DNA of 64,000 bases from Escherichia phage adrianh: the sequence record MN850614.1. One strand, 5' to 3'. The notes under the pieces were generated by a model that saw nothing but the letters and a program-made list of their open reading frames with translations, was not told the DNA's origin and did not search any database. A program made the position numbers and the translations under genes. Below are positions 7,770-27,234 of the stretch, piece by piece; within the stretch, counting starts at the first letter, position 1; the number at the start of each line of letters is the position of its first letter.

Positions 7770-9551
7770 ATGACTAAATCACTTTATGCAGTACCAGCAG
7801 GTTTAAACGCAGATGCTTACAAATCTGGTCATGTTTACCAGTACCCTAGTGCAACAGATTACTTGATGTTTAACCTGACACCACGTAGTGATAAATGGTT
7901 TAACAGCCCTTTAGCAATTGATGGTGTAGTGGCTTTTGGTATTCAACGTTTTGTTAAAGATTACTTAATAGACCACTGGAACGCCACCTTCTTTGAACGT
8001 GACAAAAAAGAAGCAATTGATGAAATCTTAGAAGTCATGAACGGTGTTCTGGGTAAAGATGCTATTGGTCGAGAACATTGGGAAGCACTTCACGACTTAG
8101 GTTATCTACCAGTTGAAGTATACGCTGTAGAAGAAGGTACAGTTGTCCCTATGCGTGTTCCAATGATTGTATTCCAGAACACTGTTTCAGGTTTCCATTG
8201 GGTAGCGGGATATCTGGAAGATGCTTTCTCTGCTGAGATTTGGAAGGCTTGTACCATTGCAACTATTGCATTGCACTACAAACGTATCTGTAAGAAGTGG
8301 TCTGACCTTACTTGTGACAACGACTTGCATTTACCTTATCAGTGCCATGACTTTGCTATGCGTGGTATGTCCGGCTTTACCGATGACGCATTTAACGCTG
8401 TAGGTCACTTAACCAGCTTTAAAGGGACTGATAGCTTCCCTGCTGTGTATACAGCTAAACGCATCTATGGGCAGTCCTATCCAATTTCCGATATTGGTGG
8501 TTCTGTACCAGCCACTGAACACTCTGTCATGTGTGCAAACATTGCTTGGGAAGGTGGGAATGAGTTAATTGAAGAAGAAAGACGCTTTAAAGGTGAGTTA
8601 CAAACCTTCCGTCGTTTCTTAACAGAAACTTACCCAACTGGTATTGTAAGTATTGTTTCAGACACTTATAATTTCTGGAGAACTGTATCAGTGATACTCC
8701 CAGAACTCCGTAAAGAGATTATGGAACGTGATGGCAAACTGGTAATTCGTCCTGACTCTGGCGACCCTGTACATATTGTCACAGGTTATAAAGCAATCCA
8801 CTTAGAGTGTGCTAAAAAGGCTTATTACGAACACCTAAGCAAGCTTGAAGCCAGCGACACAATGTTGAATACTGTTCTGAACATGAAGCTTGAAAACATC
8901 AACTACGGCATTGCTGGGTGGCTACTGTCAGAAGGTTACGAAATGGTTGTTGACAGAGAAGACTTTGAAGTTGCTGATACAGTGATGTTGAAAAATGCTT
9001 ATATGGTTGGTTCTGCAAACGTTGTAACACGTCCTGTAGCAGAGATTGATGGAGCTATCAAGACACTGTATAACATCTTTGGGGGAACTATCAACTCTAA
9101 AGGTTTTAAAGTACTGGATGAGCACATCGGACTTATTTATGGTGACTCTATCACGTTGGAACGTGCAAACGAAATCTTGAAGCGTTTGTATGAAATGGGT
9201 TTTGCAAGCTCTAACGTAGTGTTTGGTGTAGGCTCTTACACTTACCAGTACATGACTCGTGACACCTTTGCATTTGCTGTCAAAGCAACTCTTGCAAGCA
9301 TTGGTGGTAAAGAGATTATGCTTGCAAAAGACCCTAAAACAGATAGTGGTGTTAAGAAATCTGCCTTTGGTGGTGTAGCACCTATGTGGGATGGTGATAA
9401 GCTGAAAGCTGTAGATGGCTATGGATTCCAGAGTTTTGCAGATGTACTTGACCACCAAGCTTGTGCTTTACGTTTAGTCTTTAGCGACTCTGAGCAGTTC
9501 GGTTATACAACTCTTGGAGATATTCGAAATAATATTGACAAGCAGCTTTAA
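7770..9551 (+). CDS. Nicotinamide phosphoribosyltransferase family protein (NAMPT/NadV-like; candidate Namat)
   Basis: 593 aa; HDFAMRG, FKGTDS, SVPATEHS, IVSDTYN, IRPDSGDP and IYGDS blocks match NAMPT as recalled. Confidence 0.85.
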   Translation: MTKSLYAVPAGLNADAYKSGHVYQYPSATDYLMFNLTPRSDKWFNSPLAIDGVVAFGIQRFVKDYLIDHWNATFFERDKKEAIDEILEVMNGVLGKDAIGREHWEALHDLGYLPVEVYAVEEGTVVPMRVPMIVFQNTVSGFHWVAGYLEDAFSAEIWKACTIATIALHYKRICKKWSDLTCDNDLHLPYQCHDFAMRGMSGFTDDAFNAVGHLTSFKGTDSFPAVYTAKRIYGQSYPISDIGGSVPATEHSVMCANIAWEGGNELIEEERRFKGELQTFRRFLTETYPTGIVSIVSDTYNFWRTVSVILPELRKEIMERDGKLVIRPDSGDPVHIVTGYKAIHLECAKKAYYEHLSKLEASDTMLNTVLNMKLENINYGIAGWLLSEGYEMVVDREDFEVADTVMLKNAYMVGSANVVTRPVAEIDGAIKTLYNIFGGTINSKGFKVLDEHIGLIYGDSITLERANEILKRLYEMGFASSNVVFGVGSYTYQYMTRDTFAFAVKATLASIGGKEIMLAKDPKTDSGVKKSAFGGVAPMWDGDKLKAVDGYGFQSFADVLDHQACALRLVFSDSEQFGYTTLGDIRNNIDKQL

Positions 9552-14032: not shown

Positions 14033-14047
14033 TAAGTAATTTCTTAA

Positions 14048-14072
14048 AAGGCTGCTTCGGCGGCCTTTTTTA
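14048..14072 (+). terminator. Rho-independent terminator (UUCG tetraloop)
   Basis: GGCTGC TTCG GCGGCC then TTTTTT. Confidence 0.6.
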
Positions 14073-14132
14073 TTTGTATTTTGTGCAGAGTGCTGTATAA
14101 TTGTTGTCACGATAAACTAAACAGGAGAACCA

Positions 14133-17188: not shown

Positions 17189-17381
17189 CTTCTGCAAAGA
17201 CTGTGCTATCGAGATGTTTGGACGTGATACAGGTGATTTAAAAGGTCTTATCACTGAAGATGACTTTAAAGCTGGCTATGCAATGCCAGTAATCTGTGAA
17301 GGTTGTGGATGTATCTGGGTAGACCACGAAGGACAGCGTGTAAAACCTTCAGAAGATAAAGAATCTTGGGAGAGATGCTAA
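17181..17381 (+). CDS. Small Cys-rich protein (CxxC..CxxC)
   Basis: Track ORF 17145..17381; ATG at 17181; CKDC and CEGCGC motifs. Confidence 0.4.
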   Translation: MADFCKDCAIEMFGRDTGDLKGLITEDDFKAGYAMPVICEGCGCIWVDHEGQRVKPSEDKESWERC

Positions 17382-18167
17382 ATGGGTATTGTAAAAATCA
17401 TCAATGGTGATATCTTTGCAGCATTTGATAAAGGTAAGTTTGATGTCATCGGTCACGGTTGCAACTGTATGAACTTAATGGGCGCAGGTATCGCTGACAA
17501 GATTTCCAAACTTTACCCAAAAGCATATGAGACCGACACAGAAGTTTATATGTATGCAGGTGGTATAGGACACAAACCCTGTGAAAATTTACTGGGTAAT
17601 TTCTCTGTAGCACGTTTAAAACAAGGTCGTATAGCTAACCTTTACACTCAGCTTAAGACTGGTAAAGATGCCCGATACAGTGCTTTAGAGTCATCTTTGA
17701 AGCAGCTTAACAGATACTGTGAAGTCAATCAGTTGAAGAAAGTAGGGTTACCTATGATTGGTGCAGGTATCGGTGGGCTAGACCCTCAAGCCGTCACAGT
17801 TATCATTAATCAGGTGATGAAGAGTGTAGATGTGTATCTATATGTCTATGAAGGAGAGATGTACCACAAGTTATGCTCAGGTTGGAAGAACTACTGTGAA
17901 CCAGAATACTTTGCAGGTGTAGCAGTGTTCACGGATAATGCAGTTACCCTCTTCAGACGAAGAAAGGGTAAGATACATCAAAGTAACCCTCCGGTTGAAA
18001 AGATGTCTCTAAGTAACGCTCTAGTTACCCACCTGTCGAAGAGCAATCACAGAATTGCAGTAACATTTGGCAGTGATGCAGATGCTTATATCTATGCAAG
18101 AACTGATGAGGATATCGAGTTAATCTTCTCTTCACCAGAGCTTACCTTCTTAGACGCAAAGAACTAA
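17382..18167 (+). CDS. Macro-domain protein (ADP-ribose binding/processing)
   Basis: 261 aa; N-terminal GDI..GHGCNCMNLMGAGIA and later GAGIGG resemble macro-domain glycine loops. Confidence 0.55.
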   Translation: MGIVKIINGDIFAAFDKGKFDVIGHGCNCMNLMGAGIADKISKLYPKAYETDTEVYMYAGGIGHKPCENLLGNFSVARLKQGRIANLYTQLKTGKDARYSALESSLKQLNRYCEVNQLKKVGLPMIGAGIGGLDPQAVTVIINQVMKSVDVYLYVYEGEMYHKLCSGWKNYCEPEYFAGVAVFTDNAVTLFRRRKGKIHQSNPPVEKMSLSNALVTHLSKSNHRIAVTFGSDADAYIYARTDEDIELIFSSPELTFLDAKN

Positions 18168-18235
18168 GAAACTTCGTAGTATATTCACAATAGACTAAGC
18201 CTTTCTTATCTGGTAAATTTTTCAGGTAAGGAGGG

Positions 18236-18421
18236 TTTTTTCATTTCAGATTTGTGCAGGTAGAGTTCTGTAGAGAAATCTATAGAGAAAATTTTGAACT
18301 CCAAAGAGAAAATTCATTTTCAAACTGTGCAGGTAATCTCCAAAGGGTTTTTTTCATTTTCAAAACGTGCAGAGAAAAATCAGGTCGGGCAAGAAAAATC
18401 ATTTTAGAATTGTGCAGGTAG
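18236..18421. repeat. Four tandem copies of a CATTTTCAAA-N2-GTGCAG(GTA) element
   Basis: Copies at about 18236, 18310, 18347 and 18393; related copy near 14066-14092. Confidence 0.6.
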
Positions 18422-18597
18422 GTGGGTACATGTGGGGATGTCGCCATTTCTCACAAGGCTACCACATCTAAAAATAAAAGTCAACAGAAAAATTTGTAGC
18501 GGATTGAAAAATAATTCTTGATTGTAGTTCTGTTTTGTGGTAGTCGCGCGCACCCGTTTCATTACAATCTTTGCAAAAAATATTTTTAAAATTCCTA

Positions 18598-18626
18598 TTG
18601 ACTCTTTGAGTATGGTTATCTAATAT
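18598..18626 (+). promoter_or_regulatory. Sigma70-like promoter
   Basis: TTGACT, 17 nt spacer, TAATAT. Confidence 0.5.
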
Positions 18627-18676
18627 TTGCATCAGACGGGCAATCAAGCCCACTTCCTAAACTGGAGAATCTAAAA

Positions 18677-18883
18677 ATGCTTTACAGTCGCGAATTGATG
18701 GTTACAACTAACATTAACACAAAGGCAAAACGTTTTTACATGCAAATCTGTGGCGTATGGTCTAGAATATCAGAGACTGACTATTGCAACTATGTAGAAA
18801 CGGCTATAAACTCTAATTGCTACCTTACAAGAAATACAAGAAAGTACATAAGACAGACAGCAATTTATTACTACGATAAATAA
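18677..18883 (+). CDS. Hypothetical protein
   Basis: 68 aa ORF downstream of promoter at 18598. Confidence 0.4.
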   Translation: MLYSRELMVTTNINTKAKRFYMQICGVWSRISETDYCNYVETAINSNCYLTRNTRKYIRQTAIYYYDK

Positions 18884-18971
18884 AGTACTTTACAAGGGGC
18901 TTATAGTTCGATAAAGTAAGCCCCAGATAAAGAGCTTTACCAAATTAACCCTTAAACTAGGAGATTCAAAA
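18881..18971 (+). promoter_or_regulatory. Cassette A copy 1 (TTTACA, GGGGCTT..AAGCCCC stem-loop, AGATAAAG, RBS)
   Basis: About 90 bp unit repeated 6 times; includes upstream stop codon and downstream GGAGA RBS. Confidence 0.6.
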
Positions 18972-19355
18972 ATGGCATATCGTGCACCGAAATTCATCAA
19001 CAAAGACAACTTTCGCAAAGTACTGGAGAAGTCACTTGATGAGAATTTTAAAGGCAACATTATTGTTGTTCACGCATTCAATTTTAAGTATGATGTAAAC
19101 GGGAATAGAATCAACCATTACACGGCAACCATGTTAGACGGTACACTATCAAGTGAAAAAGCCGTACTGAATGCACTAGCAGGACGCGGAAAAGTATTAG
19201 TAAGATGTGATAAGCGACGTTATCAGGGTGGCGCATATGGTTATGATGATGCTGTTTATCATCTTGAAAATATGGGCTATAAAGTAGAAAAAGCTGGAGT
19301 ATCGCAAATCATCGGGAGCGATGGTTATGTAACAATCTTCAAAATTAACGAATAA
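18972..19355 (+). CDS. Hypothetical protein
   Basis: 127 aa ORF between cassette copies. Confidence 0.5.
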   Translation: MAYRAPKFINKDNFRKVLEKSLDENFKGNIIVVHAFNFKYDVNGNRINHYTATMLDGTLSSEKAVLNALAGRGKVLVRCDKRRYQGGAYGYDDAVYHLENMGYKVEKAGVSQIIGSDGYVTIFKINE

Positions 19356-19441
19356 AGTACTTTACAAGGGGCTTATAGTTCGATAAAGTAAGCCCCAGAT
19401 AAAGAGCTTTACCACTAAATCCTAAATTGGAGAACTTAAAA
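19353..19441 (+). promoter_or_regulatory. Cassette A copy 2
   Basis: Near-identical to copy 1. Confidence 0.6.
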
Positions 19442-19675
19442 ATGGCTATTATCAAAAACGTTGTAATTGCTGCAAAAACTCGTGATGACGCTCGCGTTAT
19501 GGCTAAAAAGTTATGCGGGAAAGTGGTTGACAATGGGAAAAAATCTGCTGTAAGATGGGGCGTAAAGGTTGATAAACATTTAACCTTAAAACGTAGTTCA
19601 AACAACCTTTTTAAAGGTGTAAAATCACTCGGTAAAGTGAATGTTTTCACTAAAAAGGTTATAAAATGCACTTAG
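19442..19675 (+). CDS. Hypothetical protein
   Basis: ATG 19442 (track start is TTG inside the cassette); 77 aa. Confidence 0.45.
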   Translation: MAIIKNVVIAAKTRDDARVMAKKLCGKVVDNGKKSAVRWGVKVDKHLTLKRSSNNLFKGVKSLGKVNVFTKKVIKCT

Positions 19676-19696
19676 CATTAACTGGAAATTTAATCT

Positions 19697-19786
19697 GATA
19701 AAGTACTTTACATGGGGTTTAAAAGTTGATATCTTAAGCCCCAGATAAAGAGCTTTACCACTCAATCCTAAACTGGAGATTCAAAA
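19697..19786 (+). promoter_or_regulatory. Cassette A copy 3 (diverged stem)
   Basis: TTTACA then GGGGTTT..AAGCCCC stem, AGATAAAG. Confidence 0.55.
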
Positions 19787-20299
19787 ATGAAAACTGTAGA
19801 CGCTACTTTTGAAGTTGTAAAAGAAAAATTCACCATTATCTATGAAGCGGTAAATTGCTTTGAAGCAAGCCATAATCTTGATAATTGGAAGTTTACAGAT
19901 GACCATCAAGGCGGTGTGACTATTAAAAATCCTAACTGTCAGCGTAACGATTTTAAATATGCAATTCCTTTAAATTATAGCCTTAAGCAGCTTTCTAGTG
20001 ACTATGCAAAACAAGGCCGGGAAAACCCATCAAAAGAGGCTTATATCAGCTTACAGGAAGAACTAGAAAGAGATTTAGAGGCTTCAGAGTACAACCTTGC
20101 CGCGAAAGTTGTGGATGCAAACGGTAACACGGTTTTAGAAAGTTTTTATCTTGGTTATGCTTTCGATTGGTGCTATCGTGACGGCGATGATTTAGAGGAT
20201 AGACTAAAAGAAGAGGTGAGCAATTCAGACGCAGAAACTGAAGTATTAGAACGTTTGGAATCGTTGAAAGACTCAGTGATGAATATCTTTAAGAACTAA
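19787..20299 (+). CDS. Hypothetical protein
   Basis: 170 aa ORF. Confidence 0.5.
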   Translation: MKTVDATFEVVKEKFTIIYEAVNCFEASHNLDNWKFTDDHQGGVTIKNPNCQRNDFKYAIPLNYSLKQLSSDYAKQGRENPSKEAYISLQEELERDLEASEYNLAAKVVDANGNTVLESFYLGYAFDWCYRDGDDLEDRLKEEVSNSDAETEVLERLESLKDSVMNIFKN

Positions 20300-20391
20300 A
20301 TAGATTTCTTTACACGGGGCTAACAAGCTGATATGATAGCCCCAGATAAAGAGATTTATCAAATAAAGCCCTTAAACTAGGAGATTCTAAA
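20300..20391 (+). promoter_or_regulatory. Cassette A copy 4 (diverged)
   Basis: TTTACA then GGGGCTA..TAGCCCC stem, AGATAAAG. Confidence 0.55.
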
Positions 20392-20688
20392 ATGAAATTA
20401 TCGAATAAAGTTCGTGAAAATCTGAGCAAATTACTCAACAAAATTGATTTCATTGAAACATCAAGAAATAGTCATGATGTTATGGAATGGTTACACGGCA
20501 AAATAAAAGGCCGTCGTGTAGTGATTTGTTTATGGAATAGTTGCAGGGAGTATAAAAAACCTGTATTGCAAGTAAATATTTATGATGATACTTTTAAAAG
20601 TCCTGTAAAGTCTAAAAGTGATTTATTAGAATCCTATGAGATAACTTTAAATGGCAAAGTATCACGTAAAGAGGAAACACCATGTTAA
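20392..20688 (+). CDS. Hypothetical protein
   Basis: 98 aa ORF. Confidence 0.45.
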   Translation: MKLSNKVRENLSKLLNKIDFIETSRNSHDVMEWLHGKIKGRRVVICLWNSCREYKKPVLQVNIYDDTFKSPVKSKSDLLESYEITLNGKVSRKEETPC

Positions 20689-21014
20689 TGACTGGTATCA
20701 CTGCAATCATTGCCATTTTCGCGCTATATAAGGCATATAAAGCCTATAATCTAGCAAATAAGGCAATCACACAGCAGGTTAGCAATAACCTTGTAGAAAG
20801 CTTTCTAGGGCGCCTCAGTGATGAGCAAATAAAGCGGCTAGAGATGAGCTTCAGATATAAAGCGAAAACCTATCAGATAAGTGACATCTTCAAAGATGAT
20901 TTTCAGTTAGTGGATGATTATAACTCTCTGATAAATGCTTTAAATATTAGTGACTTAAAAGACTATTACGCTGTAATTGTCCAAGAATTGAACAAACGAA
21001 AAAATTCCTCTTGA
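20682..21014 (+). CDS. Hypothetical membrane protein
   Basis: 110 aa, hydrophobic N-terminal segment. Confidence 0.45.
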   Translation: MLMTGITAIIAIFALYKAYKAYNLANKAITQQVSNNLVESFLGRLSDEQIKRLEMSFRYKAKTYQISDIFKDDFQLVDDYNSLINALNISDLKDYYAVIVQELNKRKNSS

Positions 21015-21102
21015 TTTTGGTTTTTAAAACAAGTAAATTACTAATCAACGGGAGGTAATAACCTCCCCACTAAGTAAAATCCTTAAACTAGGAGCTTTTA
21101 AA
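21008..21102 (+). promoter_or_regulatory. Cassette B copy 1 (TAAATTACTAATCAAC, GGGAGG..CCTCCC stem-loop, RBS)
   Basis: Second repeat family, 6 copies; stems conserved with variable loops. Confidence 0.6.
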
Positions 21103-21375
21103 ATGTACACTACTAACAACGGTCGCACCTTAAACGTAACCCTACGCCACTACATGAACGGCGTAATGCACTTCGAGGATTTACAAGCCGAACAACATAT
21201 CTTAGATTGGCAACTTGCAGGACTACAAAAAACTGCTACAGGATACGGGAAAAAGATTCCAACCAGTTGGAAAGTATACTACGAAGGCCGTTTGCGCAGA
21301 ATTTATCAGGATGTGCAAAGCAATAGCGCATTGAGTTACATCATAGTAAAAGGTAAAAAGCTGCATTTAGTATAA
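21103..21375 (+). CDS. Hypothetical protein
   Basis: 90 aa ORF. Confidence 0.45.
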   Translation: MYTTNNGRTLNVTLRHYMNGVMHFEDLQAEQHILDWQLAGLQKTATGYGKKIPTSWKVYYEGRLRRIYQDVQSNSALSYIIVKGKKLHLV

Positions 21376-21461
21376 AGTACTTTACAAGGGGCTTATAGTT
21401 CGATAAAGTAAGCCCCAGATAAAGAGCTTTACCACTAAATCCTAAATTGGAGAACTTAAAA
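21373..21461 (+). promoter_or_regulatory. Cassette A copy 5
   Basis: Identical to copy 2 through the start codon. Confidence 0.6.
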
Positions 21462-21866
21462 ATGGCTATTAATAATCGCGAGTTATCAATCTTAAAAGCA
21501 CGTTTGACCGTTAACCGGATTAATGTTATTACGTCATCAGCACCGGACGAAACATTGCACAACATTATTGGGAAGATTCAAAGCGTTATCTTAGACGTTG
21601 AAAACGTAAAAAACTCATTGGCTGACGTTGCAGCAGGTATCACGCTAGACGGTGCACAATATGAAATGACCGACATGTTAGGCAAATCTAAGGTAATGAA
21701 TAAAGAGCTTGATTTGAAAATGTTTCGGTTTGCTGTTAAAGTGTGGCTATCTGTCGAGTATGACGCTAACTTTGCAATCGCTGACTTTTTCGCCACTTGG
21801 TTACAACGTAATTTGACAAATCATGATTTTCGTGGTATCTGTGATGCAATTTATGCAGAACTCTAA
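21462..21866 (+). CDS. Hypothetical protein
   Basis: ATG 21462; N-terminus MAI shared with 19442 gene via cassette. Confidence 0.45.
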   Translation: MAINNRELSILKARLTVNRINVITSSAPDETLHNIIGKIQSVILDVENVKNSLADVAAGITLDGAQYEMTDMLGKSKVMNKELDLKMFRFAVKVWLSVEYDANFAIADFFATWLQRNLTNHDFRGICDAIYAEL

Positions 21867-21873
21867 AAATTTA

Positions 21874-21967
21874 TCTTGATTTTGGTTTTTAAAACAAGTA
21901 AATTACTAATCAACGGGAGGTAATAGCCTCCCCACTAAACAAAGTCCTTAAACTAGGAGATTCAAAA
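21874..21967 (+). promoter_or_regulatory. Cassette B copy 2
   Basis: Includes upstream CTTGATTTTGGTTTTTAAAAC extension shared with copy 1. Confidence 0.6.
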
Positions 21968-22171
21968 ATGGCTATTATTAACGGTTTAACCATTGAAACT
22001 ACACACATCAAAGATATTAAAGTCGGTGATGTAGTTCTCTTTCACGGCGTAGAAAAAACCGTCACGGCGAAAGATATTACAGAGGACTCCTTCATGGGTA
22101 GGTCACTCTTCGGTGATTCTTATTGCTTAGGTTACCGTGCAGTTTTAAAAGTTGTAAAAAATAACCGATAA
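21968..22171 (+). CDS. Hypothetical protein
   Basis: 67 aa ORF. Confidence 0.4.
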   Translation: MAIINGLTIETTHIKDIKVGDVVLFHGVEKTVTAKDITEDSFMGRSLFGDSYCLGYRAVLKVVKNNR

Positions 22172-22256
22172 AGTACTTTACAAGGGGCTTATAGTTCGAT
22201 AAAGTAAGCCCCAGATAAAGAGCTTTACCACTAAATCCTAAATTGGAGATTCTAAA
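22167..22256 (+). promoter_or_regulatory. Cassette A copy 6
   Basis: Near-identical to copies 1, 2 and 5. Confidence 0.6.
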
Positions 22257-22799
22257 ATGAAATGCTTTCACGGTACTACCCAAGAAAATTTCCTCAACCT
22301 GATTAATAACGGTGACAAGCCATCAGGTGCATGGAATTGTTCGGATATGGACGGCAATTTTTACGTGTACCCAGAAAATAAAATCTATGGCGACGATGAG
22401 GAAGAGATAATCTCTGAAGGTATCCAGCAAGCGTTAGGTAATGCCACTATTACGGCCGCTTTCCAGATGAAAACCCAAAATATTGTTATCTTAGAACTTG
22501 ATATCCCAGAGGATGACCTAAATGACGATTATTCTTGTGATAATATGTCTGGCGTAGCAAGTTTTACAGAATACTTCGATTTAAATTGGATTAAAAAGGT
22601 TTACGTAACAGAGTTTAACGCTATGTATTCGCCTTTTTGTCTTCCTTCATTGGATAACCCAAATTTAAATTATCTTGATGAGTCTCTGGAGCTTCTTGCT
22701 AAAAGTGTCCAACAGTCGGACAGTATTCAGGTTTTTTGTGACATCATGGACACACTAACGGGAAACATCGCAGAAGAGGATTTAAAGAGCTTTTTCTAA
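22257..22799 (+). CDS. Hypothetical protein
   Basis: 180 aa acidic ORF. Confidence 0.5.
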   Translation: MKCFHGTTQENFLNLINNGDKPSGAWNCSDMDGNFYVYPENKIYGDDEEEIISEGIQQALGNATITAAFQMKTQNIVILELDIPEDDLNDDYSCDNMSGVASFTEYFDLNWIKKVYVTEFNAMYSPFCLPSLDNPNLNYLDESLELLAKSVQQSDSIQVFCDIMDTLTGNIAEEDLKSFF

Positions 22800-22831
22800 A
22801 AACCTATGCAATCACCTTATAAACACTGATT

Positions 22832-22852
22832 AGCCCCTCACAGGGGCTTTTA
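22832..22852 (+). terminator. Hairpin, weak terminator
   Basis: AGCCCCT CACA GGGGCT then TTT. Confidence 0.35.
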
Positions 22853-22865
22853 AGAGGCTTAAATC

Positions 22866-23099
22866 ATGCTTACAACCGTTTATCTTATCCTTTCTATTTG
22901 TAATGGTCATTCATGTGATTTTAAAGGGCTTGAGGAGTTTACAGGAAGTAAAGAAAATGCTGTTCAGGTCTGTCAGATAGCAAGGCAAGACTACCCCGCC
23001 AGTGATGACATACAATGTTACTTTAAGACAGAAGATGAAGATGGTATCTATTTCGATAGTGTAGACGGTCAATATGAAATAATTATAGAAAAAGACTAG
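22866..23099 (+). CDS. Hypothetical protein
   Basis: 77 aa ORF. Confidence 0.4.
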   Translation: MLTTVYLILSICNGHSCDFKGLEEFTGSKENAVQVCQIARQDYPASDDIQCYFKTEDEDGIYFDSVDGQYEIIIEKD

Positions 23100-23115
23100 A
23101 CAAGCCTGATAAAAA

Positions 23116-23189
23116 TCTGTAAATTACTAATCAACGGGGAGGGAATGACCTTCCCCACTAAACAAAATCCTAAACTGGAGATTCAAAAA
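23116..23189 (+). promoter_or_regulatory. Cassette B copy 3 (variant stem GGGGAGGG..CCTTCCCC)
   Basis: Stem retained through compensatory substitutions. Confidence 0.55.
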
Positions 23190-23531
23190 ATGGCTTATGT
23201 AACCGTAATTACTGATAAAGAGGGTTCATCTTGGTCAACTCAGGTTAGTGATAAGATGTCGCCTATGCAGTGCCTAAAATACTTTGAACAGTGGAACAAA
23301 GGCGAGGACACAAGCCCCTTTCAAGTGATGCAGATTATCCATGTAGACAATGAAGGGAAGAAAACGACTTTAAACAGCGAGTTCTATGCAACCCGATTTG
23401 AAACGAGATGTAAAACGATGAAGTTATTACGTGAATCCGGTTATGCCCATATCGCCGCGTTAATCTGGGATGACCTGCTAAAAAGTCAGCGTATCAGCTA
23501 TGTAAAACCTGAAAAAATATTCATCAGTTAA
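23190..23531 (+). CDS. Hypothetical protein
   Basis: Track ORF 23145..23531 trimmed to ATG 23190 after cassette RBS. Confidence 0.45.
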   Translation: MAYVTVITDKEGSSWSTQVSDKMSPMQCLKYFEQWNKGEDTSPFQVMQIIHVDNEGKKTTLNSEFYATRFETRCKTMKLLRESGYAHIAALIWDDLLKSQRISYVKPEKIFIS

Positions 23532-23687
23532 TCAATAACTTACAAAAAACTTTCAAAAAAGTATTGACAACGCCCCTTGACATTGGTAGATTTGTTCGAG
23601 GGGGTTTATCTAAAAGGGATTAACTTAAAAGATTCTTTATAGATAAACTTAAAAAATTGCTTGCAATCAGATATCAAAACAAGTAAA

Positions 23688-23752
23688 TTACTAATCAACG
23701 GGAGGTAATAGCCTCCCCACTAAACAAAGTCCTTAAACTAGGAGATTCAAAA
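23688..23752 (+). promoter_or_regulatory. Cassette B copy 4
   Basis: Identical core to copy 2. Confidence 0.6.
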
Positions 23753-24283
23753 ATGAACAAATTTCAAGCTATCAACTACATTCGCTCAAATGCTGTAATG
23801 TCTAAGCCTGTTAAAGATACCTATGAATTTCGCTGCAATGGGGTACACTTTGCAACCATCACTAAATCAGAAAACGGGGCTTATTACGTTCATCGTCGTA
23901 ATGTTGCAACCGTTGTAGTCTCTCACTTTATGCAAGCTGTAGCAGAGTTATTACCGCTATTCTTAGGGATTTACTTGGATGAGTGTAAAAACGTTCACAA
24001 CCACGTTAAAAACCTTTTAAACGGTTATAAAATGGCTTATGAACGTTCTATCAAGTCCTTAAACAAGTTCTATAAAGCCCCTGTAAATACTGTTTCAATG
24101 GCCTACGCTGCAAATGGTGAAAGAGTAAACCTATCCGATGTGGAAGATATCGAGCTTTACGACCATCGGCCTAACGGTTACTCTCAGACACTCGGTGAAG
24201 GTTTAACGTTCAATATCAAGAACTTAGAAAAAACTTTAAAAGATATTGAAAAAGATATTGACGAGACAATCAAAAATCTGTAA
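23753..24283 (+). CDS. Hypothetical protein
   Basis: 176 aa ORF. Confidence 0.5.
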   Translation: MNKFQAINYIRSNAVMSKPVKDTYEFRCNGVHFATITKSENGAYYVHRRNVATVVVSHFMQAVAELLPLFLGIYLDECKNVHNHVKNLLNGYKMAYERSIKSLNKFYKAPVNTVSMAYAANGERVNLSDVEDIELYDHRPNGYSQTLGEGLTFNIKNLEKTLKDIEKDIDETIKNL

Positions 24284-24347
24284 ATTACTAATCAACGGGA
24301 GGTAATAGCCTCCCCACTAAACAAAGTCCTAAACTGGAGTTATCAAG
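24279..24347 (+). promoter_or_regulatory. Cassette B copy 5
   Basis: Begins at the upstream gene stop codon (CTG TAA ATTACTAATC). Confidence 0.6.
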
Positions 24348-24611
24348 ATGGAAAACGTAGAATTAACCACACTTTTACAAATTGCAACCGACAAAGAAGA
24401 TGTAGCATTATTCCACCGTATCGAAAGTGATTTGTTCAATGGTGAAATCATCAAAGAATCTTATGAAGTTGTCGGATTCAAAGATGGTAAAGCGTTTGGC
24501 TTTTTTGACCTCGACAAAGGCAACGCGGTTGCAAAATATGATGTTTTATCTTGTGAGATTCTTACAAAATACAACGAAAAAAGGCTTGCAACATACGCCA
24601 ACATGCAGTAA
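24348..24611 (+). CDS. Hypothetical protein
   Basis: 87 aa ORF. Confidence 0.45.
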   Translation: MENVELTTLLQIATDKEDVALFHRIESDLFNGEIIKESYEVVGFKDGKAFGFFDLDKGNAVAKYDVLSCEILTKYNEKRLATYANMQ

Positions 24612-24677
24612 ATTACTAATCAACGGGAGGCGACAACCTCCCCACTAAATAAAACCCTTAAACTAGGAGATTCAAAA
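24608..24677 (+). promoter_or_regulatory. Cassette B copy 6 (variant loop GCGACAA)
   Basis: GGGAGG..CCTCCCC stem retained, loop differs. Confidence 0.55.
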
Positions 24678-24926
24678 ATGGCAACTATCCGCGCTACTGT
24701 TAACGAGTTCGGTTTTTCCTCTCTGGATGTTAAATTTGACATTGTAGGCACTGATAACGCCTTTGAAATGGTGAAAGGTCTTATCAGTCAGACCATCAAA
24801 GGCTATAATCCTTCTAAGGAGTTCTGGGAGGAAACAAAACAGGAAGTTCTTAAGGATGGTTACACTTATCACTATTGGGGAGAAAAAATCGTCTCCCTGT
24901 ACTACGACAAACAAGATTATAACTAA
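24678..24926 (+). CDS. Hypothetical protein
   Basis: 82 aa ORF. Confidence 0.45.
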   Translation: MATIRATVNEFGFSSLDVKFDIVGTDNAFEMVKGLISQTIKGYNPSKEFWEETKQEVLKDGYTYHYWGEKIVSLYYDKQDYN

Positions 24927-24964
24927 TCGGCGCAGCGGGGCTAAATAGCCCCAGATACCTTTAC

Positions 24965-24992
24965 AGCCCCTTTCCCATAGGGGCTTTTTTAC
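24965..24992 (+). terminator. Rho-independent terminator closing the plus-strand small-gene block
   Basis: AGCCCCT..AGGGGCT hairpin then TTTTTT; second hairpin just upstream at about 24937-24952. Confidence 0.6.
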
Positions 24993-25419
24993 GTCTATCC
25001 AATCCTCATACAACCCCTTTCCCTTTCCTTTCCAGAATCTTATCAGACCTTAAAAAGCAATAACTTTACAGCCTTTTACTAAGTCAATTAATTGGCCTTA
25101 TTAATAAGCCCTTAAACATAAGCCAATAACCCCAGAAAGGGGGCAACCCATTTAAACGCCATATAAAGCCCTATAACGGCCTTTTTAACCTAACTTAAGG
25201 GATTGCATTACCTCACCCTTAAAAGCCCTTTATAAAGCTTCACAGAGCCTTAAAAGAATCTTATAAGGGTGTAAGCTTTATTATCTCGTTAGCTATCTTG
25301 TGAACTACTAAACAACCCCCTTGATAGTAACTGAAAAGTATGTTATAGGGGCTTTAAAGTTACTTTGAAGTATCTTAAGAGTTACGTAAATGCTAGCCCC
25401 CTTAACATTCTCTTAACAA

Positions 25420-26520
25420 TTTCTTAACAATCCCTACATAGTTATGCTTTTAAGGCACTTGTTAGCAACTTGTTAGCCCCTTGTTAAATCTCTGTTAAGA
25501 CCACGTAAAAGCCTTGTAAGAGTCTTTGACATAGCCTTTAAAGCTTCTGTAAAGCCTTATAAAGAGGTGTCTGTACAGTTGGGGTGTAACTACTAGTGAG
25601 AGACTTAAAAGAGCTTACAAGGAGCTATAGAGAGCTTTTAAGAGGTATGTTTAAGGAATCACTAAGAAAGGAAAGGGAACGATAAGAAAAGAGTAGTGAC
25701 CATGTTAATAGCTTGTTAAAAAGATTAAACACTTGTTAGAAACTTGTTAATTATCTTAACAAAATAACTCTTTAAAATTAACTTGTTAGCTCTTGTTAGT
25801 CATCTGTTAAGCCTCTGTAAAGACTATTCAGCACTTGTTAATTGGTATTGTTACCAATCCCTAGAAAACTGTTAAGCCCTTGTCAGTTCTGTTAAGAAAC
25901 TGTTAAGACCTTTGAAGAGTTGTTAAGAAGATGTGAGAACTGTTAAGAGATTGTTAAGGATATTTTAAAATTTTGCAAAGGGGATGTTACAGGGATGTTA
26001 AGGGCTACCAAGCAGATATACATCCTCTACAGATATTTTTCAGTTCCTTCAAAGACCCTAAAAAAAAAATGACTTGACAGTCTTATTTTATAAAAATTTT
26101 AAAATTCTGAATAATTACCTAGACAGTCTTTTAAAAATACAGGTAGAAACAGGCTTATAAGATACCTTGTTAGTACCGTGTTAGACCTTGTGAGATAAGG
26201 TCTGTGAAGATATTCCTGTTAAGTTTGTTAAAACAGCCTATATAGAGGCTTAGTAATACCTAGTGAACACCTATAGAGGGTAACATAGCTAACCTAGAGA
26301 TTAAGAGGTGTATAGGAGCTTCTAAGAGTGTGTAGAGAGATGGTTAAGGTGATTGTATAGGTTGTTAAGAAGGCTTGTTAGAAGAGTGTTTAGAAGGCTT
26401 GTTAGAGGGCTAGTTAGAAGGGTTATACAGAGGGGCTATTAAGACCACTAGATAGTTACTAAGATACTATATAGTACTATATAACTATATATAGAGAGTA
26501 AGATTAAGAAGGTTGTTAAG
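25420..26520. repeat. Dense array of short TGTTAAG / TTGTTAG-type repeats in a coding desert
   Basis: No track ORF between 25013 and 26629; more than 30 copies of TGTTAAG-like heptamers at 8-20 bp spacing. Confidence 0.7.
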
Positions 26521-26592
26521 AAGGGTAGATATTTTATTCACATATGATGGTGACCCAGAGGTTGGGACAACCGATAAAATTTTATAAAAATT

Positions 26593-26617
26593 AAAAAGCC
26601 CCCCAATTAAGGAGGCT
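26593..26617 (-). terminator. Rho-independent terminator for the minus-strand block
   Basis: On minus strand AGCCTCC..GGGGGGCT hairpin followed by TTTTT. Confidence 0.5.
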
Positions 26618-26628
26618 CTTAAGATATT

Positions 26629-27234
26629 TTAAATGAGTGTTTCCAGAACTGTCTTCAGTGATGACTTGGTTGTCTGATAAAAATGAGTGAAGCCATTGTT
26701 GTTATCAAACACCTGCATCATGATACCATCTCCCTTGATTGGGTACACTCGGATATCATAGTGAAACCCATTAAAGACAGCAGAACCACTACAGAATGAA
26801 CTAAAATCATCTACTGAGATGTACTCTTCATGACCTGTGATTTTTATACAAACACCTTTACTCGGTCTCTTAGGGTTGATATCTTCCATCACAGACATAT
26901 TCTGTCCACCAAGAGATACCATAGTGACCACTTTACGGTTCTTCTGTCTGAAGTACATTTTAACTTTCTGCAAGGTGTCTTCATAGAACGGATAAGACTT
27001 CTCTACAAAGATTCCTTCAAGTGGCTCTTTACCGTTTACAATACCTCTGGTATGTCGTACTGAGAAGATAAGTTGCTCTAGCAGGTCAAGGCTTTCTTCG
27101 GATAGTGCTTCCCTAATATCATTCCAATCAAGTACTAGGTAGTTACCTTCAACATCTTTTAAGTTATCTTTTTCCATATCTATCACACCATTATCGTAAA
27201 ACTTGGTAAGCTGGGACTGCAAACTTGTTGCCAT
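26629..27234 (-). CDS. Hypothetical protein
   Basis: 201 aa ORF. Confidence 0.5.
   Translation of the reverse strand: MATSLQSQLTKFYDNGVIDMEKDNLKDVEGNYLVLDWNDIREALSEESLDLLEQLIFSVRHTRGIVNGKEPLEGIFVEKSYPFYEDTLQKVKMYFRQKNRKVVTMVSLGGQNMSVMEDINPKRPSKGVCIKITGHEEYISVDDFSSFCSGSAVFNGFHYDIRVYPIKGDGIMMQVFDNNNGFTHFYQTTKSSLKTVLETLI

What the first reader, a model, noticed from the sequence alone, without database searches (positions are those of the whole stretch)
18236..18421. Four tandem copies of a CATTTTCAAA-N2-GTGCAG element upstream of the small-gene region
Within 190 bp the unit (A/T-run)CATTT(T)CA(G/A)A-NN-GTGCAG(GTA) occurs four times at 35-75 bp spacing, and a related copy follows the terminator at about 14066-14092. 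The position, downstream of the macro-domain gene and upstream of the first cassette-driven genes, and the phased repetition suggest a binding-site array for a transcription factor or phage regulator, or a cluster of non-canonical promoters.
Basis: seen in the sequence. Interest (0 to 1): 0.55.

Follow-up and report, generated by a model that had tools for sequence, protein, structure and literature searches.

The report
Conserved four-repeat DNA array in Felix O1-like phages
A real, strongly conserved array of four same-direction DNA repeats sits just after a terminator, at the entrance to the end-of-genome block of small early genes in Felix O1-type phages; it is most likely a docking site for a DNA-binding protein, not a set of promoters, and its role has never been tested.

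Summary
CATTT-N7-GTGCAG occurs four times on the + strand, at 18242, 18315, 18355 and 18400 (spacing 73/40/45). It lies in a 509-bp gap between a macro-domain gene with its terminator and the first promoter-driven small gene.

The window is a Felixounavirus (about 96% identical to phage Barry). A weight-matrix scan of the whole genome finds only these four sites (29-40 bits). The "related copy" near 14066 is a borderline fifth site; it keeps every invariant base and overlaps a sigma-70-type promoter. So this is not a genome-wide promoter class.

The array is kept at the same position in all four Ounavirinae genera (nearly always four copies), although the neighbouring macro protein is only about 33% identical. 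The left half of the unit recurs as 3-4-copy arrays in Erwinia phage Hena1 and in a 147-kb metagenomic phage.

It is not coding, not a structured RNA, not in the terminal repeat and not a DnaA-box cluster. T5 and A5 tracts interchange between units, which points to recognition at the DNA level.

Best reading: a protein-binding array acting as operator or insulator at the head of the terminal early-gene module (about 8-9% of the genome from one physical end). An iteron-type origin is the main rival. The function is untested.

The parts
17382..18167 (+). Macro-domain (Tk.4-like 'phosphatase') gene, last gene of the upstream operon
   Evidence: Pfam Macro, E = 7e-8. The array follows this gene in all four Ounavirinae genera.
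18197..18240 (+). Intrinsic terminator; its T-run is also the T-tract of repeat unit 1
   Evidence: 17-pair stem followed by a T-run. Phage phiWec174 has a different terminator sequence but keeps the same fusion to unit 1.
18234..18262 (+). Repeat unit 1 (T-tract type): GGTTTTTTCATTTCAGATTTGTGCAGGTA
   Evidence: (40.3 bits). It is followed by a TAnnnT-like hexamer (TAGAGT, TATAGT, TATATT, TATTAT) in most variants.
18275..18293 (+). Orphan copy of the left (purine-rich) block, GAAATCTATAGAGAAAATT, with no core attached
   Evidence: the repeat finder family D2, 84% identical to 18296-18314.
18296..18335 (+). Repeat unit 2 (A-tract type): GAACTCCAAAGAG-AAAAT-TCATTTTCAAACTGTGCAGGTA
   Evidence: (37.6 bits).
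18336..18375 (+). Repeat unit 3 (T-tract type): ATCTCCAAAGGG-T7-CATTTTCAAAACGTGCAGAGA
   Evidence: (29.0 bits).
18378..18420 (+). Repeat unit 4 (A-tract type): TCAGGTCGGGCAAG-AAAAA-TCATTTTAGAATTGTGCAGGTA
   Evidence: (35.4 bits). This unit and its neighbours are the only part of the gap that BLAST aligns with Erwinia phages (H70-H75).
18476..18525 (+). Conserved AT-rich block (AAAGTCAACAGAAAAATTTGTAG...TTGATTG) between the array and the promoter
   Evidence: At least 80% column conservation across Felixounavirus, Suspvirus and Mooglevirus. My reading: a similar GTCAAGAGAAA-TTTTTTGT string occurs in PVP-SE1.
18598..18626 (+). Sigma-70-type promoter (TTGACT-N17-TAATAT with an AT-rich upstream region) of the first small gene, 18677-18883
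   Evidence: conserved across genera.
14066..14089 (+). Solitary, weaker fifth site, TTTTTTATTTGTATTTTGTGCAGA. It starts in the tail of terminator 14046-14069 and covers the -35 and spacer region in front of TATAAT (14096-14101).
   Evidence: Syntenic sites score 21 bits in Mooglevirus/Suspvirus-type contigs, where TTGAAA-N16-TATAAT is a good promoter and GTGCAG is kept although the flanks differ. Absent from phiEa21-4.
25396..26009 (.). Context: the stretch homologous to the direct terminal repeat, i.e. the physical genome ends. The array lies about 7-7.8 kb from it.
   Evidence: The NBSal004 record carries an identical 694-bp repeat at both ends, and it maps here. Short terminal repeats of 608, 581 and 439 bp are reported for related phages and were verified for SPARTY.

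Best explanation
The four repeats form a cis-acting array of protein-recognition sites read on double-stranded DNA. Each unit is about 40 bp and asymmetric. It has a purine-rich left block, an A5 or T5 tract (a narrow minor groove and a bend), and two short conserved blocks about one helical turn apart (TCATTT and GTGCA). That layout suits a protein that contacts two successive major grooves plus the minor groove. Four units in the same orientation, placed almost end to end, would load four protomers into one nucleoprotein complex.

The complex would sit directly behind the terminator of the rIIA-to-macro operon and 180-360 bp in front of the first promoter of the terminal block of about 15 small, individually promoted early genes. 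I infer that it controls transcription at this boundary, acting as an operator or insulator, or as a nucleation site for switching the early module. A single weaker site covers positions -37 to -20 of another terminator-proximal promoter at 14.07 kb.

Shown: the array exists, is unique in the genome, is conserved, and is neither coding nor a structured RNA. Inferred: that a protein binds it, which protein, and that the output is transcriptional.
For: - Uniqueness: the weight-matrix and invariant-pattern scans of the whole genome find only this locus plus one borderline site.
- Conservation: nearly all of 33 distinct Ounavirinae loci carry exactly four copies at the same syntenic position, in Felixounavirus, Suspvirus, Mooglevirus and Kolesnikvirus. 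Between the window and Kolesnikvirus the macro protein is about 33% identical and its gene 59% identical, yet the 24-nt cores are 68-74% identical, with TCATTT and GTGCA nearly invariant. The array is the only part of the gap that BLAST aligns with Erwinia phages.
- Selection on the core: phiWec174 has a different macro allele and a different terminator, yet keeps TTTTTCATTTTCAATTTGTGCAGGTA fused to the T-run.
- DNA-level reading: T5 and A4-5T tracts interchange between units and between genera. They are equivalent as A-tract DNA but not as RNA.
- Lineage-wide change: all four copies read GTGCAG in three genera and GTGCAT in Kolesnikvirus. This fits co-evolution with a phage factor, or gene conversion.
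- Link to transcription: the fifth site overlaps a promoter's -35 and spacer region, and GTGCAG is kept there while the flanks diverge.
- Wider family: the left half of the unit recurs as 3-4-copy arrays, with alternating T-tract and A-tract units, in the large non-coding region heading the homologous small-gene module of Hena1 and of contig L159.
Against: - No binding protein has been identified. The only annotated regulator, a 99-aa HTH_3 protein, has no detectable homologue in Kolesnikvirus, which does carry the array. Neighbouring genes have no Pfam domains.
- The array lies 180-360 bp upstream of the nearest good promoter, which is far for a classical operator, and it could not directly control the other roughly 14 promoters of the module.
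- Spacing differs between genera and is not helically phased.
- Very high core identity across hosts could instead point to an unidentified host factor.
- Natural variants with three copies exist, and the flanking genes are dispensable in Bas63, so the element may not be essential.
- There are no expression, binding or replication data for this locus in any paper searched.
Confidence: 0.4

Rival explanations
1. Iteron-type origin of replication. The four direct repeats bind an initiator (phage or host), bend the DNA through the A-tracts, and open the adjacent AT-rich stretch (about 18470-18600). Nearby early transcription could supply the primer, as proposed for phage T4 oriE.
For: - The array consists of four asymmetric direct repeats in one orientation, unique in the genome, each with an A-tract, and it lies next to AT-rich DNA and early promoters.
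- Conservation exceeds that of the flanking genes.
- No origin is known for this family; the Felix O1 genome paper names none.
Against: - The primase-helicase is of the T7 gp4 type (Toprim plus DnaB_C), a type that from general knowledge needs no iteron-binding initiator.
- No Rep-like gene lies nearby, and the replication genes are 25-35 kb away.
- Spacing is irregular, unlike the roughly 22-bp spacing typical of iterons.
- GC skew shows no inflection at the locus.
- The window holds only six consensus DnaA boxes (11.4 expected by chance) and none lies at the array.
- Other repeat-dense non-coding regions (the terminal-repeat region and the divergent DNA-polymerase intergenic region) are at least as plausible as origins.
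Confidence: 0.25
2. Four tandem non-canonical promoters (or one real promoter at unit 1), recognised by host RNA polymerase with a phage-encoded specificity factor, firing into the early module.
For: - All units point in the direction of the downstream genes.
- The conserved span of about 23 bp is promoter-sized.
- Unit 1 reads TTTTCA-N17-TAGAGT, and across relatives the hexamer after GTGCAGG varies while mostly keeping TAnnnT (TATAGT, TATATT, TATTAT, TAGATT).
- The fifth site lies inside a promoter.
Against: - The consensus scan finds no sigma-70-type site within 18236-18421.
- Units 2-4 have no -10-like hexamer at a fixed distance, and the A-tract units have no -35.
- The position of the motif relative to the -10 element differs by 6 nt between unit 1 and the fifth site.
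- The motif is not found upstream of any other gene.
- No phage RNA polymerase, sigma factor or MotA/AsiA-like factor is annotated.
Confidence: 0.1
3. A checkpoint for DNA entry, analogous to the injection stop signal of phage T5. The array marks the inner edge of the genome segment that enters the cell first, and it pauses DNA transfer until the terminal early genes have been expressed.
For: - In three independently oriented records the array lies 7.5-8.2 kb from one physical end, which is 8.5-9.5% of the genome.
- The interval between the end and the array is filled with 15-17 small genes, all pointing toward that end. Each has its own promoter in the window, and 8 of the 15 window genes have homologues in phage SPARTY.
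- The T5 stop signal is likewise a conserved, repeat-rich non-coding region; first-step transfer covers 7.9% of that genome.
Against: - None of the papers searched or read here reports two-step injection in Felix O1-like phages.
- The defining sequence features described for T5 (paired DnaA boxes, large inverted repeats, palindromes) are absent here.
- It is unknown which genome end enters first.
- A fixed distance from the end follows trivially from conserved module content.
Confidence: 0.05
4. A small protein gene, or a functional RNA, lies across the repeats (wV8 gp13, Mordin gp014 and 3HA14 AC3HA14_1215 are annotated there).
For: - A 55-codon GTG-initiated ORF spans 18254-18421 on the + strand.
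- Several GenBank records annotate ORFs on one strand or the other.
- On the - strand every unit begins ATG AAA AA or ATG AAT TT (my reading).
Against: - The repeats fall in different reading frames, no frame is open in all genera, and the 37/37/39 against 73/40/45 spacing breaks any common frame.
- There is no Shine-Dalgarno sequence ahead of the - strand ATGs (my reading).
- The RNA fold is no more stable than shuffled sequence (z = +0.86).
- There is no Rfam match.
- U5 and A5 would not be interchangeable in an RNA element.
Confidence: 0.03

Closest known systems
Iterons of phage and plasmid origins (lambda ori with four O-protein sites and A-tract bends; phage T4 oriE repeats). This comparison rests on my own knowledge, not on a paper read here.
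   Same: A small number (four) of asymmetric direct repeats in one orientation, unique in the genome, associated with A-tracts and neighbouring AT-rich DNA, and conserved as a block.
   Different: The units are about 40 bp rather than 17-22 bp. Spacing is irregular and differs between genera. No cognate initiator gene is adjacent. The replisome is T7 gp4-like. No replication data exist.
Operator arrays of phage regulators that read asymmetric sites (for example the 17-bp C1 operators of phage P1, or two-subsite monomer sites of the MarA/SoxS type). This comparison rests on my own knowledge.
   Same: A non-palindromic bipartite site with two conserved blocks about 12 bp apart. One solitary site overlaps a promoter's -35 and spacer region. 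The sites sit at terminator-promoter junctions.
   Different: Four of the five sites are clustered well upstream of any good promoter. No regulator is assigned. The one annotated helix-turn-helix protein is missing from Kolesnikvirus. The marbox consensus does not fit when compared by hand, because the spacing is wrong.
The injection-stop-signal region of phage T5 (Davison, bioRxiv 10.1101/866236)
   Same: A conserved, repeat-rich non-coding region that bounds a terminal block of early genes at about 8-9% of the genome from one end, and that is better conserved than many neighbouring ORFs.
   Different: T5's region is about 1.2 kb, with inverted repeats, palindromes and paired DnaA boxes, and lies mostly inside a 10-kb terminal repeat. 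Here there are 190 bp of direct repeats only, no DnaA boxes, a terminal repeat of only 0.4-0.7 kb located 7 kb away, and no report of two-step transfer in the papers searched.
Tandem centromere-like repeats such as F-plasmid sopC (twelve 43-bp units). This comparison rests on my own knowledge.
   Same: Head-to-tail units of about 40 bp, each offering one site to a DNA-binding protein that could nucleate a larger complex or silence nearby genes.
   Different: No ParA/ParB-type genes are annotated. The phage is strictly lytic. The units contain no inverted repeat.

Membership tests
Sigma-70-type promoters (tandem promoter cluster) | -35 and -10 hexamers 16-18 bp apart in each unit | tested here: not met
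   The consensus scan finds no site within 18236-18421. Only unit 1 gives a weak TTTTCA-N17-TAGAGT. Units 2-4 have no -10 element at a fixed distance.
Phage-specific promoter class | The motif recurs upstream of many genes across the genome | tested here: not met
   Whole-genome scans with the weight matrix and the invariant pattern find four clustered sites and one borderline site only.
Iteron-type replication origin | At least three direct repeats in the same orientation, unique in the genome | tested here: met
Iteron-type replication origin | Regular spacing of about two helical turns, or at least helical phasing | tested here: not met
   Spacing is 73/40/45 bp here and 37/37/39 bp in Kolesnikvirus.
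Iteron-type replication origin | A cognate initiator gene next to the repeats | tested here: not met
   Twenty neighbouring and replication-region proteins were scanned. Apart from Macro, HTH_3 and the Toprim/DnaB-type helicase-primase hits there are no domains, and no Rep-like protein.
Iteron-type replication origin | An adjacent AT-rich region where the DNA unwinds | tested here: inconclusive
   AT-rich stretches at 18470-18525 and 18575-18600 are present, but they coincide with the upstream regions of promoters.
Iteron-type replication origin | Replication initiates at the site | not testable with these tools
   This needs marker-frequency analysis or 2D gels. GC skew is uninformative, because it follows the direction of transcription.
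DnaA-box cluster | Matches to TTWTNCACA | tested here: not met
   The window holds six consensus boxes against 11.4 expected, none at the array. Comparing by hand, the window units match 5 of 8 specified positions (ACCTGCACA), while Kolesnikvirus units match 7 of 8 (CTATGCACA, TTATGCACG; sequences).
T5-type injection stop signal | Lies at the inner boundary of a terminal early-gene block, about 8% from a physical end | tested here: met
   7.5-8.2 kb from the end, which is 8.5-9.5% of the genome.
T5-type injection stop signal | Inverted repeats, palindromes and paired DnaA boxes | tested here: not met
   The repeat scan of 18100-18700 finds one weak overlapping-arm palindrome, at 18557-18590, downstream of the array, and no DnaA boxes lie there.
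T5-type injection stop signal | Two-step DNA transfer shown experimentally | not testable with these tools
   No report was found in the papers searched.
Terminal repeat or packaging (pac) site | Lies within or next to the direct terminal repeat | tested here: not met
   The terminal repeat maps to about 25396-26009, some 7 kb away. In SPARTY the 439-bp repeat is at the record ends and the array at 8029-8173.
Protein-coding gene (wV8 gp13 and similar annotations) | An open reading frame conserved among relatives | tested here: not met
   The open frames differ between genera and strands, and the repeats lie in different frames.
Structured non-coding RNA | An Rfam match, or a fold more stable than shuffled sequence | tested here: not met
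   No match came near a family's gathering score, and the fold z-score is +0.86.
IHF binding site | WATCAANNNNTTR, with the conserved bases at conserved positions | tested here: not met
   Compared by hand. The TCAA-like segment falls in the variable N7 part of the unit (CAGA, TCAA, TTAG, TCGA, TGAA).

The most novel reading that the evidence does not exclude
The array is a cis-acting checkpoint for genome entry, functionally analogous to the injection stop signal of phage T5. The approximately 7-8-kb terminal block of small, self-promoted genes would enter and act first, and the protein-bound array at its inner edge would hold back the rest of the genome. If so, stepwise DNA delivery would extend from T5-like siphoviruses to Felix O1-like myoviruses, and perhaps to some rV5-like ones.
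Probability: 0.05. Interest if true: 0.85.

Novelty: new variant of a known kind. Interest (0 to 1): 0.5.

Why it matters
Felix O1-type phages are classic Salmonella typing and biocontrol phages and are now models for functional genomics (Bas63). Even so, how their transcription is timed and where their DNA replication starts are not known. This array is the most sharply conserved non-coding element near the early region, and it marks the boundary of the terminal block of early genes.

Finding what binds it would give a direct handle on the early-to-middle switch, on the origin, or on DNA entry. It would also identify a safe or unsafe site for engineering these phages. Practically, it also shows that the ORFs annotated across the repeats in several GenBank records are probably spurious.

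Tried and rejected
- Genome-wide promoter class: rejected by weight-matrix and invariant-pattern scans of the window plus the rest of the genome, taken from phage Barry.
- Location in the terminal repeat or packaging site: rejected by mapping the NBSal004 and SPARTY terminal repeats.
- Coding ORF on either strand, including the - strand ATG-AAA-AA mini-ORFs: no conserved frame and no Shine-Dalgarno sequence.
- Structured RNA or Rfam family: none.
- DnaA boxes: no consensus box lies at the array. The near-matches occur in Erwinia phages only.
- Compared by hand and not fitting: IHF, Fis, CRP, sigma-54, sigma-E, the marbox and the RfaH ops element.
- GC skew as an origin marker: it follows the direction of transcription only.
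- Presence in bacterial genomes, E. coli genomes or plasmids (satellites, decoys): none found. The 32 hits in GTDB genomes are unrelated tandem repeats.
- The HTH_3 regulator as the binder: its homologues are absent from Kolesnikvirus, which has the array.
- The gene immediately downstream (68 aa) as a coupled factor: it is not conserved in Kolesnikvirus.
- PhageMaP data for Bas63: there are no intergenic measurements, only that the flanking genes 95 and 96 are dispensable.
- Literature searches for the motif strings, for Felix O1 promoters or transcriptomes, and for wV8 direct repeats found no description of this array.
- Phapecoctavirus ESCO5 and PVP-SE1: no comparable array.

Full report
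**Identity of the window and the locus.** The region 17300-19400 is 96% identical to Escherichia phage Barry and 92-95% identical to many other Felixounavirus genomes. The finding lies in a 509-bp ORF-poor gap, 18168-18676. Upstream is a 261-aa Macro-domain gene at 17382-18167 (Pfam Macro). An intrinsic terminator follows at 18197-18240. Downstream, a sigma-70-type promoter (TTGACT-N17-TAATAT, 18598-18626) drives a 68-aa gene at 18677-18883. This is the first of about 15 small + strand genes that run to 25013.

CATTT-N7-GTGCAG occurs exactly at 18242, 18315, 18355 and 18400, all on the + strand. The repeat finder returns one four-member family with spacing 73/40/45. A 32-nt weight matrix built from relatives scores these sites 29-40 bits. 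Nothing else in the window, or in the remaining 24 kb of the genome (taken from Barry), exceeds 12.6 bits, which is the level that shuffled sequence reaches.

It has a purine-rich left block (GAACTCCAAAGAG, ATCTCCAAAGGG or CAGGTCGGGCAAG), then a T5-7 or A4-5T tract, then TCATTT, six variable AT-rich bases, and GTGCAGGTA. T-tract and A-tract units alternate (T, A, T, A). The repeats are not helically phased.

**The 'related copy'.** The site at 14066-14089 scores only 12-15 bits, but it carries every invariant base. The invariants-only pattern occurs five times in 87.6 kb, against 0.12 expected: the four array units and this site. It starts in the T-tail of terminator 14046-14069 and lies in front of a perfect TATAAT at 14096-14101. 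The motif therefore covers about -37 to -20 of a promoter (my reading; the consensus scanner did not call this promoter because the -35 hexamer TTGTAT is weak).

In Mooglevirus/Suspvirus-type contigs the syntenic site scores 21 bits, and the promoter there is TTGAAA-N16-TATAAT. GTGCAG is retained although the surrounding bases differ. The site is absent from phiEa21-4. I treat it as probably related.

**Conservation.** In 33 distinct loci from GenBank and IMG/VR, the array follows the macro gene in Felixounavirus, Suspvirus, Mooglevirus and Kolesnikvirus.
- Nearly every locus has exactly four copies. Spacing is 73-77/39-41/43-45 bp in the first three genera and 37/37/39 bp in Kolesnikvirus.
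- A few natural variants have three copies.
- Between the window and Kolesnikvirus the macro protein is about 33% identical over its full length (45% in the best local match). The 24-nt cores are 68-74% identical, with TCATTT and GTGCA essentially invariant.
- BLAST aligns only the array part of the gap with Erwinia phages.
- phiWec174 has a different macro allele and a different terminator, yet keeps TTTTTCATTTTCAATTTGTGCAGGTA fused to the T-run.
- All four copies read GTGCAG in three genera and GTGCAT in Kolesnikvirus.

**A wider family.** I searched metagenomes with the conserved 170-aa protein encoded 1.4 kb downstream (19787-20299, the Felix01p032 family). This found a 146.8-kb phage contig (L159). 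About 1.6 kb upstream of its homologue it carries four copies of GGGTCTCGATAGCTTTTTCAWWW, spaced 75/34/29. Erwinia phage Hena1 (Vequintavirinae) has three GGAGACTTGAGGGGTTTTTCAAAT units alternating with A-tract units, in the 820-bp non-coding region in front of its homologue.

An alignment of 18 units shows a shared left half: GGTCT or GACT, a purine-rich block, T5, then CA. The right half (TTGTGCA) is specific to Ounavirinae. PVP-SE1 has the gene and a long non-coding region but no array. Phapecoctavirus ESCO5 has neither.

**What it is not.**
- *Not coding.* The 55-codon ORF at 18254-18421 (annotated as gp13 in wV8) and the - strand ORFs annotated in Mordin and 3HA14 are not conserved in frame or in extent, and the repeats fall in different frames.
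- *Not a structured RNA.* The fold z-score is +0.86 and there is no Rfam match. Interchangeable U5 and A5 tracts would be hard to explain in an RNA.
- *Not a promoter class.* The motif is confined to this locus. Units 2-4 have no -10 element at a fixed distance, and the A-tract units have no -35. Unit 1 alone reads TTTTCA-N17-TAGAGT, and its hexamer varies among relatives while usually keeping TAnnnT. One weak promoter at unit 1 therefore remains possible.
- *Not in the terminal repeat.* The NBSal004 record carries an identical 694-bp repeat at both ends, and it maps to window 25396-26009. SPARTY's 439-bp repeat is at its record ends, with the array at 8029-8173. Short terminal repeats of 608, 581 and 439 bp are reported for this subfamily.
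- *Not a DnaA-box cluster.* No consensus box lies at the array. Comparing by hand, the window units match 5 of 8 positions and the Kolesnikvirus units 7 of 8.
- *Not found elsewhere.* There is no match in E. coli genomes, in plasmids, or in species-representative bacterial genomes.

**Position in the genome.** In three independently oriented records the array lies 7.5-8.2 kb from one physical end, which is 8.5-9.5% of the genome (NBSal004-based mapping, pEP20 and SeKF_63, and SPARTY). The stretch between the end and the array holds 15-17 small genes, all pointing toward that end, and 8 of the 15 window genes have homologues in SPARTY. The array therefore marks the inner boundary of a terminal block of early genes.

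**Mechanism.** The evidence best supports a DNA-level array of protein-binding sites. Each site is asymmetric and bipartite, with two conserved blocks about 12 bp apart plus an A-tract. There are four in one orientation, almost abutting, unique in the genome and under strong purifying selection.

Its place behind a terminator and ahead of the early-module promoters, together with the single weaker site lying over a promoter, makes control of transcription at this boundary the most likely output. It could act as an operator, an insulator, or a nucleation site for a switch. My confidence in this reading is about 0.4.

The main rival is an iteron-type origin (about 0.25). The repeat architecture and the lack of any known origin favour it. 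Against it stand several observations. The helicase-primase is T7 gp4-like and there is no adjacent initiator. Spacing is irregular. Two other repeat-dense non-coding regions are at least as plausible as origins.

The binder is unknown. The only annotated regulator (HTH_3, which appears important for fitness in Bas63) has no homologue in Kolesnikvirus, so it cannot be the universal reader. The very high core identity across phages of Escherichia, Salmonella, Citrobacter and Erwinia leaves a host factor possible. The GTGCAG-to-GTGCAT change across a whole lineage argues for a phage factor, or for gene conversion.

**Comparison with known systems and novelty.** The array works most like iterons or operator arrays, but it does not meet the defining tests of any named family (see the membership table). 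Its resemblance to the T5 injection stop signal is in position only.

No paper found describes this element. The Felix O1 genome paper lists other direct repeats and states that temporal regulation is unknown. The wV8 record annotates a nearby 'DR_6' and an ORF across the repeats. Searches for the motif strings returned nothing relevant.

I rate it a new variant of a known kind (a direct-repeat protein-binding array) and of moderate interest. It is real, ancient and unexplained, but arrays of this general type are common in phage control regions.

Noticed in passing
window 25013-26629: This 1.6-kb ORF-free region contains the direct terminal repeat (about 25396-26009). It is packed with dozens of copies of a short motif, CTTGTTAAG or CTGTTAAGA, in both orientations, including runs with 11-nt spacing at 25447-25490. 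These are candidate terminase, replication or regulator sites.
   Followed up: partly
L009:15350-15700 (Barry 65.35-65.7 kb, between the DNA polymerase gene and gene 95; outside the window): The divergent intergenic region next to the replication genes carries repeated CTTAAAAG and GTTACTTAACAG motifs and a 27-nt near-palindrome. The motif resembles the one in the terminal-repeat region, and the region is an alternative candidate for the origin.
   Followed up: no
L163:2772-2979 (Erwinia phage Hena1) and L159:2199-2360 (146.8-kb metagenomic contig): These loci hold homologous left-half arrays (GACTTGAGGGGTTTTTCAAAT and GGGTCTCGATAGCTTTTTCAWWW) of 3-4 copies. Further A-tract sequences lie between or beside them; they alternate regularly in Hena1. 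The arrays sit upstream of the Felix01p032-family gene that heads a similar small-gene module.
   Followed up: partly
L163:3036-3110 and L162:2834-2905; partly L159:2450-2500: A non-coding element conserved among Hena1, PVP-SE1 and L159 begins TTGAATGAGAATCATTCTCATTTGCAGAATAGCRGGCAGG and includes a perfect GAGAAT-C-ATTCTC palindrome. It has no Rfam match, and no counterpart was seen in the window.
   Followed up: partly
window 18421-18470: The stretch just after unit 4 is G-rich here (GGTGGGTACATGTGGGGATG). In Suspvirus, Mooglevirus and Kolesnikvirus the same position is C-rich on the same strand (CCCACCACCCTCTTACTCCCC, GCCCACCCTCCCCTCTACC). This could be an inversion or a replacement; its meaning is unknown.
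   Followed up: no
window 18254-18421 (+) and 18280-18447 (-): GenBank records annotate ORFs across the repeats (wV8 gp13; Mordin FDI02_gp014; 3HA14 AC3HA14_1215; 'hypothetical protein' in several others). They are not conserved between genera and are probably artefacts of the low stop-codon content of the repeats.
   Followed up: yes
window 14046-14101 and L009:6751-7050: The solitary fifth site and the 99-aa HTH_3 regulator have the same taxonomic distribution: both are present in Felixounavirus, Suspvirus and Mooglevirus and absent from Kolesnikvirus. This may be coincidence, or a hint that this regulator reads the single promoter-overlapping site.
   Followed up: partly
window about 18660-18677: Two draft assemblies of Salmonella phages (FSL SP-010, KC139526; FSL SP-107, KC139638) have contig ends at or close to this point, just before the first small gene. 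The breaks are probably caused by the repeated promoter cassettes.
   Followed up: no
window 18677-25013: About 15 small + strand genes make up this block. Those examined have their own strong sigma-70-type promoter, and the intergenic cassettes are annotated as direct repeats in wV8. Eight of the 15 have homologues in the Kolesnikvirus SPARTY. The block looks like a host-takeover module next to a genome end.
   Followed up: partly
window 36148-41046: A cluster of 24 tRNA genes on the + strand, as expected for Felix O1-like phages.
   Followed up: no
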